A program made the position numbers. A stretch of DNA of 64,000 nt, taken from positions 21,881-85,880 of the forward strand of contig JAQBUT010000014.1 in assembly GCA_027623195.1 (NCBI GenBank), in the 5' to 3' direction. The stretch comes from Chloroflexota bacterium. Lineage in GTDB: Bacteria > Chloroflexota > Dehalococcoidia > Lucifugimonadales > JADFKI01. This document shows, one piece after another, positions 12,001 to 30,000 of the stretch; the first letter of the stretch is position 1; each line of letters begins with the position of its first letter.

Positions 12001-15000
12001 GCCTTCGGAGTACCCCGTAGAGCTTGCAGCGCTCACCAAAGACGTTAGGCTGGTGCAGACGGTAAGCGCCGGCACCAACATGATCGATAAGACAGCCCTT
12101 GGTGAACTGGGCATTCGTGTCGCCAACAACGGCGGCGGAAACGCCATCGCCGTATCCGAACACACCATCACCTTGATGACCAGCGTCTATCGCAAGATGC
12201 AGCTTCAATTTAAGTCTGTACAGGCGGGGGATTGGGCAGGGAATATCCGCAGCGACTGGATGTCACAGGCCCACGAGATAGCCGGCAAGACTGTCGGCAT
12301 TATCGGACTGGGTCGCATCGGCTCGAGAGTTGCCCGACGACTACAGGGGTGGGAGTGCGAACTCCTGTACAGCGACATCGAACCCGCTTCTCCCGAGCTA
12401 GAGGCGGAGCTTCACATAACGCGAGTATCCCAACAGGAGCTGTTGGAGAGGTCCGACATTGTGACCTTGCACGTTCCCTTAAACCGCAGCACTACAAAGA
12501 TGATTTCGGATGCGGAGTTCGACATGATGAAGCCCACCGCAGTCCTCATCAACGCGTGCCGTGGTCCGGTTGTAGACGAGGCGGCGCTTATCCGAGCCAT
12601 TGAGCAGAAGAAGATCATGTCGGCAGGCCTGGATGTTACAGAGGTAGAGCCCACGCCCAAGGACAACCCGCTACTGGGGTTCGAGAACGTGCTGATAACG
12701 CCGCACCTGGCAGCCTTCGCTCAGGAGTCCAACGAGCGCGCCCGCACCTTCGCAGTGAACAACTCAACGAGGGTCGCCATGGGACAGGAACCCGAGTCCA
12801 TTGTGTTGCCTGACTAATTAGCCCGTCATAGGCGAATTAGCCATCCTGGAATCGCAAAATATTAAAAGCCCAGTCGTTCAAAGTCGGACGACTGGGCTTT
12901 TAATTTACATACTTAGATTTGGGCCTACTGTGGCGCTGTTCAACTACTAGCGCCAAATTTACCCTAGGGGTAGCTGACGCCGATTTTTTTTAGAACGTCC
13001 AACGGACTGGAATCCAGCAGCATGTTGGCCTCGTCTTCGTCCAGTCCGGCTCCCCGCGCGATCTTAAGGGCAAACTCCCTGGTTAGCAGGTCTTCCGGGG
13101 CGTGCGCATCTGAGTCCATTACTATTCTGGCCCCGGCCTCATTCGCAGTCCGAACCACATGACCGTTAGCGAATCCGTGGCCTTTTCTGGCGGAGACCTC
13201 CAGGAATATACCATTCTCGGCGGCTGTCCTGGCATCGTCAGGCGTTATCAATCCAGGGTGGGCAAGTATATCCACATGCTTGGAAGTGACGGCGGCGTGG
13301 TTGGTCCCGGACTCCACTGGCTCGACGACCGTCTCGCCATGCACGTTGACCATCTTTGCGCCAAGGGCTCGAGCGTCTCTAGCCATCATGTCGATGTCCT
13401 CTACGGGCGCGTAGGTAATCTCCACCCCGGGCAGCGCCAGTATGTCCCAGCGTTTGGAAGCCAACGCGCAGTCCGTTACCAGAGTTTTGATGACGAACTC
13501 CAGGTTGCCTGGCCCAACGTGGTCGGTCACCGCGATGACCTTGTAGCCGATGTGAACAGCCCTGCGGATAAGCTCAGTTGGGGCAAGCTCACCGTCGCTC
13601 AAAAACGTATGTGTATGAAAATCAAACAATTTCTTGTGTCCTCGGAATATTTTCCGCGCCATCGCTGACCGCCGCAACCACTCGTACATAGACGGCCTCT
13701 GCCATCACGGTAGGCGTAACCGATGTTGCGAGCGACCAGCCTTCATGGATACGGCTTTACGCCTGCAGGTGTGCCATGAGGTCGCGCATCGCTTGGCCAG
13801 TGTTGCCCATGTAGAACGCTGGCACCTCGTTATCATGGTTGACCTTTAGAGAAACAAAGACCGGACCCTTGGCACTCATAACTTCAGGCAACTGCGTCAC
13901 CAGGTCCTCCAGGTTGTCGAACACGAAGGTCTCATTGAAGCCTGCCTCTCGTGCCATACCGGCCAAGTTGAACAGGCCCGCGCCAGGTATGGGCTGAGCG
14001 CCGGTGGTAAAGTAGACGCCGTCCTCAAAGACGAAGTGCACCAGGTTCTCCGGCTGCTGACCGGCGATGGTAACCAGAACTCCAAGGTTCATAAGCAGAC
14101 CGCCGTCGCCATCCAGTATCAGGACCTTCTTGTCGGGCTGCGCCAGGGCCAGTCCCAGACCTACCGACGACGCTTTGCCCATGGCCCCGAATATTGGGAG
14201 GTCCCGCTGCTTGTTCGTGGTTACAACATCCCAGTAGCGATTGGGGGTCATAGTGCTGACCACCAGAGCATCGCCTCTAACATGGCTAATGGCCTTGGCT
14301 GCGTCTGCCGATGAAATCATCTTTTTGGATTCTCCGATATTCGTTTGGGATTATTCGAAAAGTAGCCTTTGGCACTCGGTTACTTTTGTGCCTAAGGAAT
14401 TGTAGAGCCTACCAAGATGCCGCACAAGGCGACGTGGCCAAGCCGTCTGCTACGCCCGGCCTGAAGGCCCCTCATAACGCATGTCATCAGGCAGCGCATC
14501 GGAAAGGCCCAGGGCATGGATGACGCGCTGCGCAACAAAGTCTGCGATGTCTTGCATCGACTTGGGCTTTAGGTAGAAGGGCGGCTCTGGCGGCAAAATG
14601 GTAACGCCCAACCTGGCTAGCGAGGCCATGTTCTCCAGATGAATGGCGTGCAGTGGGGTCTCTCGTGGCACTAGCACAAGGGGTCGGCGTTCCTTCATGC
14701 AAACGTCAGCGGCCCGCCGGACCAGGTTATCGGACATGCCATGAGCAACGGCAGCCACCGTGGCCATGCTGCACGGCACAATCGCCATACCACGCGTCGG
14801 GAATGTCCCGCTGGCGATGGGCGCGGTCAGCTCTCCAGGCTGGTAGTAGGCGAAGTCGCCGGTATCTTGCCAACGCTCCAGCGCGGTGCCGAAGGACTCG
14901 TCCATTTCCTCCTGCCAGACCATTCGGGCGGCAGAAGAGGCCGTGGCCATCACGGGCATATCCATTTCCAGGAGCGTGTCGATAACGCTTCCGGCCAGCA

Positions 15001-27000: not shown

Positions 27001-30000
27001 GCGTACGTGTCCGCCGGCCATACCCATAAGCTCGCCCCAGTACTTACAAAGAGGAGCGGGCAGGGCACCATTGGCCATCTCGACCGTCCGCTTCCACCAT
27101 TTGTCTGAAACATCCTTGATAGGTTTCACGTGGGTGTCGTAGAACGCCCTGTCCAGATCGCCTCGCATGGCCTTGTCGATGAACTGGTTGTAGTAGTTCT
27201 TCTCAGGGGTGTCGAAACGCCAATCGGACGTATTGGCGAACATTACCTGCTGTTCAAAGCCCATCTCTTTGCCTTTGAACATGATCCACTCGTCCGGTGT
27301 GCTAATGATGGCGTCGCGGCCCAACCTGGTGTGGGCCTCTATGGACAGCTCCGGATTGAAGCTGGCTTCCTTTACGCCTACGACATTGGGAATCTCGCAT
27401 ATAGAACCCAAGCCGTCTGCGCTCATAACGATGCCAAACTGTGGAGAGTTGTAATACATAATTGCGAGGTCGGTGTTGTCGGCCAGCATCTTGACCCAGT
27501 CGATAACCTGTCCCTCAGTTTTGGTGACCATGTAGGGCGCGGCCACTATGAGGAGATCGAATCCAACACCCTCGGCATGCTTGGCCAGGGCAATCATATC
27601 CTTGTACGAGGTATGGGTGACGTGGGCCGCTATGGGCCACTCCCCGCCAGCCTCGTCGGCCGAAACGCTGTACACACGAAGCCGCTCTGCCATCGTAAGG
27701 CTCCAGAATTCACCCATTGCCCAGGTGCAGCCTCCGCCCTGGGTACCCAGGGAGCGGACATGTCGAATATTATGCCTGAGGCCCTCCTCGTCTAGCTCGT
27801 CCTCCGGAGTAAAGGGCGTCATCAGAGTAGTCCACTGGCCACGCAAATTCTCGCGGGCCCAATCCATTGCTTCAGCTTTAGTATATTCAGCCAACCCCCA
27901 CCTCCTTTTGGCGCTTTCGCTTAAGGCACCTTAGCCAGACTTCAGGGTAGCCAAAAATCGGCACAATTCCCCAACGTAAAAGGCCGGTTTCATCGGAGTT
28001 TATGATAGCTACGGCCCCTGCCTATGTCAACATTAAGGCGTCGAAATACGGCAGAAACCCAGGAGCGGGTCGTCAGTCAATTGGGGCGTATAAACGCGAG
28101 GGAAGTCTATCGGGAAAGGAGGGGTTTTATTCGGAGTCCCAGAGCTTGAAAAGATCCCTAGCGGCCAGCAAATGGGACTTGTCTACGCCCCGTTTGAGAG
28201 CTGAGGTGGGGTCGTGCAAAAGCCTATTCACGATGGATTTCGTTAGAGCATCGACGGCGCTCATCTGATCCTCAGAGAGTCCTTCTAATTTGGACACCGC
28301 TCTGGACATCTCTTTCTGGCGAATATGTTCTGCCTGCTTTCGGAGGGCCCGTATAGTAGGCAGAACATCCAGCGTGTCCCACCAGGTCATGAACTTGGCC
28401 ACCTCTTCGGCAACGACCTTCTCTGCTTCGACTGCGGCCCGCTTGCGCTCCTCGAGGTTCTCCTCTGCGATGGCGGAAAGGTCGTCGATATTGAAAAGGT
28501 TTACGTCCCGCATTGATGAAACGGCCGGGTCCACATCCCTGGGTACTGCCAGGTCAAACAGAAACAGAGGGGCTTCCCTGTTTCCGGAAAATGCCTGACT
28601 AACCATGTCCTGAGTAACGATGAAGCTTGGAGAGTCGGTTGCAGAGATGGCTATGTCCGCCTGACTGAGGCTGTCCGTTATCTCATCAAAGGGAATAGTC
28701 CGGCCATTCAGGTACTCCGCAAGCTCCTCGGCCCGCTCCAGCGTACGATTGGCGACCATCACGTCGGCGACACCGGATGTTCGCAGAGCGCTAGCCACTA
28801 GTCTGCCGGCCTCTCCCGCACCAATAAGCAACACTCTGGAGGATTCCAGTTTGCCTAAAGTGCGCTGCGCCAGCTTTACACCAGCGTAGCTTATGGACAA
28901 CGGGTTTCGACCCACGGAGGTCTCTTCCCGTACACGTCGACCAGTCTGGATAGCAGAGTGGAACAGCCCCAGGGTTGAGACTTCCACCGACTGGGCCTCT
29001 GAGGCGGAGCTTAACGAGTCCCGCACCTGGCCCAATATCTGCGATTCGCCAACGATCATAGAGTCCAACCCACCGGCTACTCTAAATAAATGGTGTACGG
29101 CGTCCGCCCCAGTGTAGTCATAGAAATGCGGCGAGACAGCATCCCGTGAGAGGCCATGAAATTCCGTAACGTAGGCGTGTACCTTTGCTGCGGTTTTGGA
29201 GGGGTCTGCCGTTATAGCGTAAATCTCCGTCCTGTTGCAGGTGGAGAGAATTACGCATTCCCCGACCCTTTCCTTAAGACCGGAAAGGGCGACGGGAAGT
29301 TGATCGTTTAGAAATGATACGGATTCTCTGACTTCCAGAGGGGCGGTTTTATGGCTAAGACCAACCAGCAATATCTGCAAGGGCGATTAGCCTTTCATTA
29401 ATTGCTTATAGTGGGTTCGCAAGCAGCGAGTGCACAGACTCTGCTTTTTCGCTACCCCATTCTCATGTATGGTCATTTTCTGCACATTCGGAACCCAACG
29501 AGTGCGAGTATGACGCTTTGAATGGCTGACGTTGTTGCCGGATTGCCCGGCCTTGTTGCACCTTTGGCAAACTGCCATGATCGCACCTTTGACTCATGTA
29601 TAATGATAAAGAAGAATTGGGCAGAATCACTTCAAAACTCAATCTTCAGGTCACATTTTGCCCGTATTTTGCCTGCACGAACTATCGTGAATTACATAAC
29701 AAAGATAGCATACCAATGAATAAACGGCAACGCTTATGAACCAATCTTCGAGCCTACATCCGACCTCCCAATCGCTGAACGGCGCAGACCTATTTTCAAT
29801 GTTTTCCGCAGCCACCAGTGCGCTAAGGAAACACGCGGAATTAGTGAACCGTTTAAACGTCTACCCGGTGCCGGACGGCGACACAGGAACCAACATGCTT
29901 CTGACGCTGGAACGAATGCTGGTTTCGGCCTCGAGCGCAAATAGCGAATCCGCTTCCCAAGTTGCCGACGCCATGTGGAACGGAGCCCTTCGCGGCTCAG

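What a model noticed while it worked through the whole genome (the two positions that open the first line are those of the whole stretch)
14450..27894. An unknown route to the respiratory quinone ring: MfnB-TusA fusion and DHDPS-type aldolase replace the early futalosine [...]
The genome has only the late futalosine genes (mqnL, mqnP, ubiX at C47:36330-39281; menG) and no mqnA-E or men genes. Nine kb away stands a two-gene unit, a DHDPS-family aldolase (g2047) and a methanofuran-type furan synthase MfnB fused to a TusA-fold domain with an invariant Cys (g2046). This unit takes the place of the early genes across Lucifugimonadales, so it is proposed to make the ring of the respiratory quinone by a route not yet described, possibly a new quinone.
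Evidence so far: Same 61 genomes: MqnL in 52, MfnB in 41, MqnC in 7; no genome has both MfnB and MqnC; all 41 and all 7 have MqnL; the 9 without MqnL have neither; 4 MqnL genomes have neither (3 of one genus, 1 fragmented). MqnA/D in 4 of 26; MenB and MenD over cut-off in 0 of 5 each. Two relatives carry one operon aldolase-mfnB-mqnL-mqnP-ubiX; one has aldolase, MfnB and TusA in a single 714-aa frame. Aldolase beside mfnB in 64 of 65 full loci, mqnL within 10 kb in 31. The fusion is full length in all 17 genomes with a match, of 26. C-terminal domain model (pLDDT 89) is closest to TusA/YhhP (TM 0.73-0.76, E 3e-3; call 154); N-terminal domain matches MJ1099/MfnB (Z 32; call 138). No Ftr/Mch genes for methanof [...]
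(Added by a program. Inside this text positions count along the whole contig: contig position 21,881 is position 1 of the stretch shown here. "Call 12" and the like, gene names such as g00115 and contig names such as C1 are that model's own, and its searches are not shown. The text may have been shortened before it was handed on; [...] marks where a part breaks off. The agent that wrote the report below was given it as the finding of a first reader that could run no searches.)

Follow-up and report, generated by a model that had tools for sequence, protein, structure and literature searches.

The report
New route to respiratory quinone ring
Many SAR202-type ocean bacteria and some archaea carry a three-part enzyme set that appears to stand in for the known ways of building the ring of their respiratory quinone, and it may make a sulfur-containing quinone from simple sugar fragments; no chemistry has been measured yet.

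Summary
The genes are real and at the stated places. In 121 genomes of the window's order, the aldolase/MfnB/TusA trio (76) never occurs with either known ring route, futalosine (16) or classical Men (18); 74 of 76 carry MqnL. The 9-kb distance in this window is block synteny and proves little. But three SAR202 loci and five Micrarchaeota genomes put the trio, or its aldolase, in one gene run with the late quinone genes, and Marsarchaeota-type archaea put the aldolase beside a MenA-like prenyltransferase. The prenyltransferase MqnP of trio genomes lacks a histidine kept in all 24 futalosine genomes read; Sulfolobales-type enzymes (thiophene quinones) lack it too, so the ring probably differs from menaquinone's. 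Best reading (0.75): the trio makes the ring precursor. Leading candidate (about 0.3): a dihydroxybenzothiophene carboxylate from two trioses, pyruvate and persulfide sulfur. Against: 62 of 81 Thermoplasmata genomes keep MqnL without trio or futalosine genes; nothing is measured. The scan noted the trio and the quinone link before, on other DNA; no paper describing it turned up in my searches.

The parts
26923..27894 (-). DHDPS/NAL-family class I aldolase, 323 aa; keeps Schiff-base Lys175 and Tyr148; the Thr-Thr pyruvate motif is changed (Trp58-x-Met60) and Phe153 replaces the Arg of DapA
   Evidence: PF00701; far below dapA cut-off, 72 vs 206 bits; alignment to 3si9; invariant columns in 47 sequences; model pLDDT 88.8, best folds NAL/DHDPS at 20-25% identity
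26196..26903 (-). MfnB-like TIM barrel (residues 1-236); Asp25, Lys27, Lys85, Asp148, Lys152 invariant (the last two align with Asp151/Lys155 of MJ1099)
   Evidence: PF04476 E 9e-54; phmmer to 4rc1 E 2.5e-41; Foldseek 4rc1 TM 0.9 of target, 36-37% identity; invariant in 34 of 34
25914..26135 (-). C-terminal TusA-like domain with invariant Cys269 at the start of its first helix; a separate small gene in archaea
   Evidence: PF01206 only E 0.06 for the window domain, but 3 of 8 archaeal stand-alone homologues pass the TusA cut-off; a profile of the SAR202 domain finds all 8 at E 1e-10 to 4e-5, all keep the Cys; beta-alpha-beta-alpha-beta-beta order in the model
28002..28030 (-). sigma-70-like promoter match (11 of 12) about 110 bases upstream of the aldolase
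   Evidence: consensus match only (2 sites found, 1.7 expected at the loose threshold)
15947..17401 (-). MqnL (UbiD-family prFMN decarboxylase)
   Evidence: TIGR03701 over cut-off
15072..15968 (-). MqnP-type prenyltransferase; Glu31 in place of the His of futalosine MqnP, Gly70 in place of Ala
   Evidence: best model NF041586 298 bits, under its cut-off 430; TIGR01475 over cut-off
14450..15103 (-). UbiX/MqnM flavin prenyltransferase
   Evidence: TIGR00421 over cut-off

Best explanation
The aldolase, the MfnB-like barrel and the TusA-like cysteine domain form one early module that builds the aromatic carboxylic-acid head group of the respiratory quinone from central metabolites; MqnP prenylates it, MqnL with prFMN from UbiX removes the carboxyl and MenG methylates it. 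Shown by comparison: the three parts travel together, exclude both known ring routes and sit in operons with the late genes. Inferred: (1) the MfnB barrel joins two triose phosphates to a C6 unit through Lys27, as MJ1099 does; (2) the TusA-like Cys carries persulfide sulfur to that step, since mfnB and tusA stay together when the aldolase moves away; (3) the aldolase adds a 2-oxo acid, most simply pyruvate, through Lys175 and helps close the second ring. Two trioses + pyruvate + S(0) - 5 H2O gives C9H6O4S, the formula of 4,7-dihydroxybenzo[b]thiophene-2-carboxylic acid, with no oxidant needed; the end product would be a methyl-prenyl-benzothiophene quinone like sulfolobusquinone. Confidence 0.75 for the role; about 0.3 for this particular ring.
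For: Three-way exclusion in 121 genomes: trio 76, futalosine 16, Men 18, trio with either 0 of 33, 109 of 121 explained. Not one clade: trio and futalosine labels interleave on the MqnL tree, and trio genome G278 has MqnL 78% and MqnP 69% identical to those of futalosine genome G286. Operons: mqnL-mqnP-ubiX-trio-menG in G269, mqnL-mqnP-ubiX-trio in G258, trio-mqnL-mqnP-ubiX in L189; mfnB-tusA-aldolase-ubiD-ubiA with ubiX nearby in 4 Micrarchaeota genomes and aldolase-ubiD-ubiA in a fifth; aldolase head to head with a MenA-like gene in 6 Marsarchaeota-type genome loci and 8 metagenome loci. Of 15 carriers looked up by handle outside the order sample, 14 have an MqnL-type UbiD and 0 of the 10 tested have MqnA/D. 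MqnP His31 is present in 13 of 13 futalosine genomes of the order, 2 of 2 Thermoplasmata and 9 of 9 Thermoprotei with MqnA+MqnD, and in 0 of 29 trio genomes of the order, including lineages nested among futalosine enzymes; 29 of the 30 best Sulfolobales-type enzymes have Gln there. No Ftr in 4 of 4 trio genomes, present in the control with canonical MfnB. G000 has complex I and cytochrome oxidase genes, so it needs a quinone.
Against: In one Thermoplasmata order MqnL is in 75 of 81 genomes, the trio in 11 and MqnA/D in 2: 62 keep MqnL with neither (59 of 78 without three unpublished genomes), their mqnL-mqnP neighbourhood and MqnP signature do not differ from those of trio carriers, and MenB was not searched in that sample. 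One SAR202 genus (3 complete-looking genomes) and G297 also keep MqnL with no ring route found. Two trio genomes show no MqnL. Two bacterial bins have mfnB and the aldolase with no TusA-like gene within 10 kb. The role of His31 is unknown; in 17 of 26 close relatives a His stands one position earlier; 6 Thermoprotei genomes keep the His with no MqnA/D found. The formula match is bookkeeping, not evidence; if MfnB's furan skeleton is kept, the pyruvate carboxyl must become a ring carbon, a step with no precedent that I can cite. All genomes are MAG-type and related.
Confidence: 0.75

Rival explanations
1. Within the best explanation: the trio makes the ordinary precursor 1,4-dihydroxy-6-naphthoate, so the product is plain menaquinone by a third route.
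For: MqnL and MqnP of trio genomes are orthologues of those in futalosine genomes, up to 78% and 69% identical; a MenA-like enzyme beside the aldolase in Marsarchaeota-type archaea suggests a bicyclic hydroquinone.
Against: A C11 acid cannot be built from one C6 and one C3 unit (inference); it holds no sulfur to explain the invariant Cys; MqnP His31 and Ala70 change with the swap in several lineages.
Confidence: 0.18
2. Within the best explanation: the ring is sulfur-free, a benzofuran (furan kept from MfnB) or a hydroxybenzoate from a triose plus aspartate semialdehyde as in GriI/GriH chemistry (recalled), with the Cys holding an intermediate covalently.
For: The MfnB active site is fully kept, so a furan is the default product; UbiD-family HmfF decarboxylates furan carboxylates (PMC6604932, passages); the TusA-like domain lacks the prolines of the usual Cys motif (recalled motif).
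Against: The dihydroxybenzofuran acid needs an extra oxidation and no oxidase travels with the trio in the loci read; the Arg that binds aspartate semialdehyde in DapA is Phe153 here.
Confidence: 0.27
3. The ring is salvaged or made by still unknown genes; the trio only modifies it or supplies a side group such as sulfur.
For: 62 Thermoplasmata genomes and one SAR202 genus keep the late genes without any ring route found.
Against: A modifier should also occur beside the futalosine or Men routes; it does so in 0 of 33. Two Schiff-base carbon-carbon forming barrels fit ring building better than decoration (inference).
Confidence: 0.12
4. The trio makes an unrelated cofactor (a thiazole or furan metabolite) and its pattern follows lineage history.
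For: thiL and thiE stand directly upstream of the trio in one archaeal locus, L285; most loci show no quinone gene next to it; kin are not independent.
Against: Operons with quinone genes in three unrelated lineages and in three gene orders within SAR202; repeated swaps against futalosine genes; the thiamine context was seen once. ThiG/Thi4 distribution was not tested.
Confidence: 0.13

Closest known systems
Futalosine pathway to menaquinone (MqnA-E early; MqnP, MqnL, MqnM/UbiX, MenG late)
   Same: Same late module; MqnL over the family cut-off; MqnP, MqnL and MqnM were themselves named by comparative genomics (PMC4746308, passages)
   Different: No MqnA-E; no radical-SAM step or chorismate enzyme in the replacing unit; MqnP lacks the His kept in futalosine genomes
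MfnB / MJ1099, 4-HFC-P synthase of methanofuran synthesis (PDB 4rc1, 4u9p)
   Same: Fold, 36-37% identity, the catalytic Lys and Asp positions
   Different: Fused or adjacent to a TusA-like domain, paired with a DHDPS-type aldolase, below the equivalog cut-off (189 vs 341 bits), no Ftr in the 4 carriers tested
Caldariellaquinone / sulfolobusquinone of Sulfolobales (benzothiophene quinones)
   Same: Thiophene-bearing prenylquinones exist (PMC11750793, PMC6770870, passages); the Sulfolobales-type prenyltransferase also lacks the His and has Gly at position 70
   Different: That ring comes from tyrosine (recalled from Zhou and White 1989; paper not held); those genomes carry a divergent single MqnD-like gene that trio genomes lack; whether they hold the trio was not searched
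TusA/YeeD sulfur carriers (PF01206)
   Same: Fold order and a single invariant Cys at the first helix
   Different: No prolines after the Cys; persulfide chemistry untested

Membership tests
Futalosine pathway | MqnA and MqnD (PF02621) | tested here: not met
   none in G000; in the order, only 3 of 76 trio genomes have hits, MqnA-like at 35-40% to a true MqnA, without MqnC/E/D
Futalosine pathway | MqnC and MqnE radical-SAM pair | tested here: not met
   0 of 76 trio genomes with the MqnC-level hit plus its MqnE neighbour
Futalosine pathway | late genes MqnL, MqnP, UbiX, MenG | tested here: met
   MqnP under the MqnP-specific cut-offs
Classical Men pathway | MenB over cut-off | tested here: not met
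   G000 best 145 bits vs 343; 0 of 76 trio genomes
Classical Men pathway | MenD, MenF, MenC, MenE | not tested
   not searched
MfnB of methanofuran synthesis | catalytic Lys27, Lys155 and two Asp | tested here: met
   aligned and invariant; roles of Lys27 and Lys155 from PMC6604932 and PMC11365854 passages; Asp numbers recalled
MfnB of methanofuran synthesis | methanofuran-using C1 enzymes in the genome (Ftr) | tested here: not met
   0 of 4 trio genomes, 1 of 1 control; Mch not searched
MfnB of methanofuran synthesis | makes 4-HFC-P from glyceraldehyde 3-phosphate | not testable with these tools
   needs assay
DapA (DHDPS) | Thr-Thr motif, Arg138, equivalog score | tested here: not met
   Trp-x-Met and Phe153 instead; 72 vs 206 bits; three other family members in the genome
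TusA sulfur carriers | PF01206 fold and conserved Cys | tested here: inconclusive
   window domain E 0.06; 3 of 8 archaeal homologues over cut-off; Cys invariant
TusA sulfur carriers | accepts persulfide from a cysteine desulfurase | not testable with these tools
   needs assay

The most novel reading that the evidence does not exclude
A chorismate- and tyrosine-independent pathway in which two Schiff-base barrels and a persulfide carrier build a benzothiophene (or other non-naphthalene) quinone ring from triose phosphates and pyruvate; it would be the respiratory quinone of most SAR202-type bacteria sampled, and has moved between them and acidophilic archaea.
Probability: 0.35. Interest if true: 0.95.

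Novelty: categorically new. Interest (0 to 1): 0.85.

Why it matters
SAR202 bacteria are abundant aerobes of the ocean, and a 2026 survey lists Chloroflexota among the lineages that seem to lack quinone pathways while suggesting that other quinones await discovery (PMC13386864, passages). A three-protein module that fills this gap names the enzymes to assay and a mass to look for. It would be a new route to a respiratory quinone ring, possibly a new quinone and lipid biomarker, and new chemistry for MfnB and TusA folds.

Tried and rejected
Proximity of mqnL within 10 kb: rejected as evidence, unrelated genes of the block are kept as often or more. Long N-terminal extensions of MfnB in G271, G365, G342: off-frame overlaps with the aldolase gene, not new domains. 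MqnC-like hits near E 1e-100 in trio genomes: single, under cut-off, longer open frames; read as CofH-type paralogues (inference) and not counted. Methanofuran role: no Ftr. A candidate early gene beside mqnL-mqnP in trio-less Thermoplasmata: none seen in 17 neighbourhoods. Phylum-wide sample: MfnB in 2 of 251 genomes, too sparse for a test. Sister aldolases from Nitrospinota, Betaproteobacteria and others have no mfnB beside them and fall outside the trio clade. Fold search of the full MfnB fusion was dominated by the barrel and did not show TusA. The careful MqnP tree did not finish; a FastTree tree was used. Papers: no description of this module or of a SAR202 quinone in searches; subscription journals are largely outside the library.
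Full report
Observation. The window is G000:C47:21881-85880. ubiX, an MqnP-type prenyltransferase and mqnL lie at 14450-17401 on the minus strand; 8.5 kb upstream lie a DHDPS-family aldolase (26923-27894) and, 19 bases after it, a 329-aa protein whose first 230 residues are an MfnB-like barrel. 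A near-consensus promoter match precedes the aldolase. The genome is 87% complete and shows no MqnA/D, MqnC or MenB; it has a MenG orthologue, two sets of complex I genes and two cytochrome oxidase subunit I genes.

Anatomy. The barrel keeps the positions of the MJ1099 catalytic residues in 34 of 34 sequences and folds like 4rc1; MfnB makes a furan aldehyde phosphate from two glyceraldehyde 3-phosphates through a Lys27 Schiff base (PMC6604932, passages). The last 73 residues form a separate domain with an invariant Cys269; Pfam TusA is only marginal for it, but its stand-alone archaeal homologues match TusA, 3 of 8 over cut-off. The aldolase keeps Lys175 and Tyr148 but not the Thr-Thr motif or the Arg of DapA. 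The aldolase is beside or fused to mfnB in 58 of 59 loci, the other ending at a contig edge; triple fusions were read in 6 of these and in 9 further genomes. Trio aldolases of bacteria and archaea form one clade, support 99 in a quick tree of 39 rows.

Distribution in the order. Of 121 genomes (at least 80% complete), 76 have MfnB, 93 MqnL at E<1e-100 (85 over cut-off), 16 the MqnC+MqnE pair and 18 MenB. The trio meets neither route: 0 of 33, about 21 expected if independent (kin inflate any P value). One genome has both known routes. Twelve have none of the three; five of these keep MqnL, of which G319 is fragmented and has a true MqnD. Two trio genomes show no MqnL. Three trio genomes of one family carry MqnA-like genes without the rest of the pathway. 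On a 70-row MqnL tree (rows chosen by me from these genomes, not all 93), trio and futalosine labels need 6 changes each, at least 4 forced by starred branches, so the pattern is not a single split.

Gene order. The 9-kb spacing seen here is conserved block synteny. Direct clusters do exist: mqnL-mqnP-ubiX-trio-menG on one strand in G269, mqnL-mqnP-ubiX-trio in G258, trio-mqnL-mqnP-ubiX in L189, and a convergent arrangement one gene apart in G289. An earlier scan note pointed to archaea, which I tested. In 4 Micrarchaeota genomes mfnB-tusA-aldolase-ubiD-ubiA is one run with ubiX divergent upstream; a fifth has aldolase-ubiD-ubiA with mfnB-tusA elsewhere; 7 other Micrarchaeota genomes show the trio without these neighbours, and the two looked up hold a ubiX-ubiD-ubiA operon elsewhere. 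In Marsarchaeota-type archaea the aldolase is head to head with a MenA-like gene (6 genome loci, 8 metagenome loci), mfnB-tusA is a pair elsewhere in 3 of 4 genomes, MqnL passes cut-off in 4 of 4, MqnA/D is not found, and no MqnP orthologue was seen in the 3 examined.

Counter-test. In the Thermoplasmata order of G371 (81 genomes) MfnB and the aldolase occur in the same 11, MqnA/D in 2 others, MqnL in 75. Thus 62 keep MqnL with neither; three of these (G417, G390, G404) are flagged unpublished, and only this tally rests on them. Their mqnL-mqnP neighbourhoods match those of trio carriers. The late genes can therefore be fed otherwise, by salvage or an unknown route; this sample neither supports nor excludes the trio's role.

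Does the ring differ? MqnP has His at window position 31 and Ala at 70 in 11 of 11 futalosine genomes compared, against no His and Gly in 29 of 29 trio genomes; two more futalosine genomes of the order and two Thermoplasmata also have the His. G278 and the family of G274/G355 sit among futalosine MqnPs in a FastTree tree yet lack it. As a control, among 121 Thermoprotei genomes all 9 with MqnA+MqnD and a prenyltransferase read have the His, while 29 of the 30 best hits to the family NF009609, whose cut-off the control Sulfolobus acidocaldarius passes, have Gln. Sulfolobales make thiophene-bearing quinones (PMC11750793, PMC6770870, passages). Limits: Gly70 also occurs in His-bearing archaeal enzymes; position 70 is three residues from the Arg proposed to bind the aromatic carboxyl in 4od5, a site that is itself disputed (PMC11047366, PMC4106721, passages); position 31 was not mapped on a structure.

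Mechanism. Shown: co-travel of three parts, exclusion from known routes, operons with late genes. Inferred: C6 from two trioses at the barrel, sulfur from the Cys (mfnB and tusA stay together when the aldolase moves), C3 added by the aldolase. The sum with S(0) equals 4,7-dihydroxybenzothiophene-2-carboxylic acid without an oxidant (my arithmetic). The furan analogue needs one oxidation and a naphthoate two more carbons. The order of bond formation cannot be read from sequence. Odds: ring-making role 0.75, split roughly 0.3 thiophene, 0.27 other non-naphthalene ring, 0.18 naphthoate.

Literature. No paper on this module or on a SAR202 quinone appeared in searches. I read passages of PMC13386864 (a supplement search gave only figure labels, and its genome tables may bear on Dehalococcoidia), PMC10444878 (supplements searched, no ring pathway named), PMC11365854 (one passage), PMC4746308, PMC3432047, and PMC12892359 (no hits). 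TusA papers were seen as a listing only. The tyrosine origin of caldariellaquinone, GriI/GriH chemistry and DapA residue roles are recalled. The scan itself noted the trio several times and the quinone link twice, on other DNA; these are leads, not support.

Verdict. A real, strongly conserved module, most likely an undescribed route to a respiratory quinone ring, with fair odds of a new or thiophene-type quinone. Interest 0.85.

Noticed in passing
window 17405-18553 (-): 382-aa protein with a C-terminal cytidylyltransferase-like domain, ending 3 bases before mqnL; seen in 33 of the 59 SAR202 loci, as many as show mqnL; N-terminal half has no Pfam match.
   Followed up: partly
G254, G309, G345 (L073, L463, L464): One SAR202 genus keeps mqnL-mqnP-ubiX-menG with no trio, futalosine or MenB gene found; its MqnP lacks the His but keeps Ala70. 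A further ring source or salvage is implied.
   Followed up: partly
Thermoplasmata order of G371, e.g. L260-L269: 62 of 81 genomes keep MqnL without trio or MqnA/D: another unexplained ring supply.
   Followed up: partly
L552:2904-3770, L553:3290-4156: Sulfolobales-type genomes each carry one divergent MqnD-like gene (25-29% to true MqnD) and no MqnA-like hit: a candidate enzyme for caldariellaquinone ring formation.
   Followed up: partly
L299:9176-10996, L311: Two bacterial bins carry mfnB and the aldolase nested among Marsarchaeota-type sequences, with no TusA-like gene within 10 kb; both have MqnL over cut-off.
   Followed up: partly
L285:1240-4860: thiL and thiE directly upstream of the trio in one archaeal bin.
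   Followed up: no
L214:7384-8812: DUF981 membrane protein and an HxlR regulator flank the Micrarchaeota operon; DUF981 also lies near the trio in some Thermoplasmata loci.
   Followed up: no
L078:9352-10125 (G025): A Chloroflexota genome outside the order has a canonical MfnB in a methanofuran/methanopterin-type gene cluster, with Ftr.
   Followed up: partly
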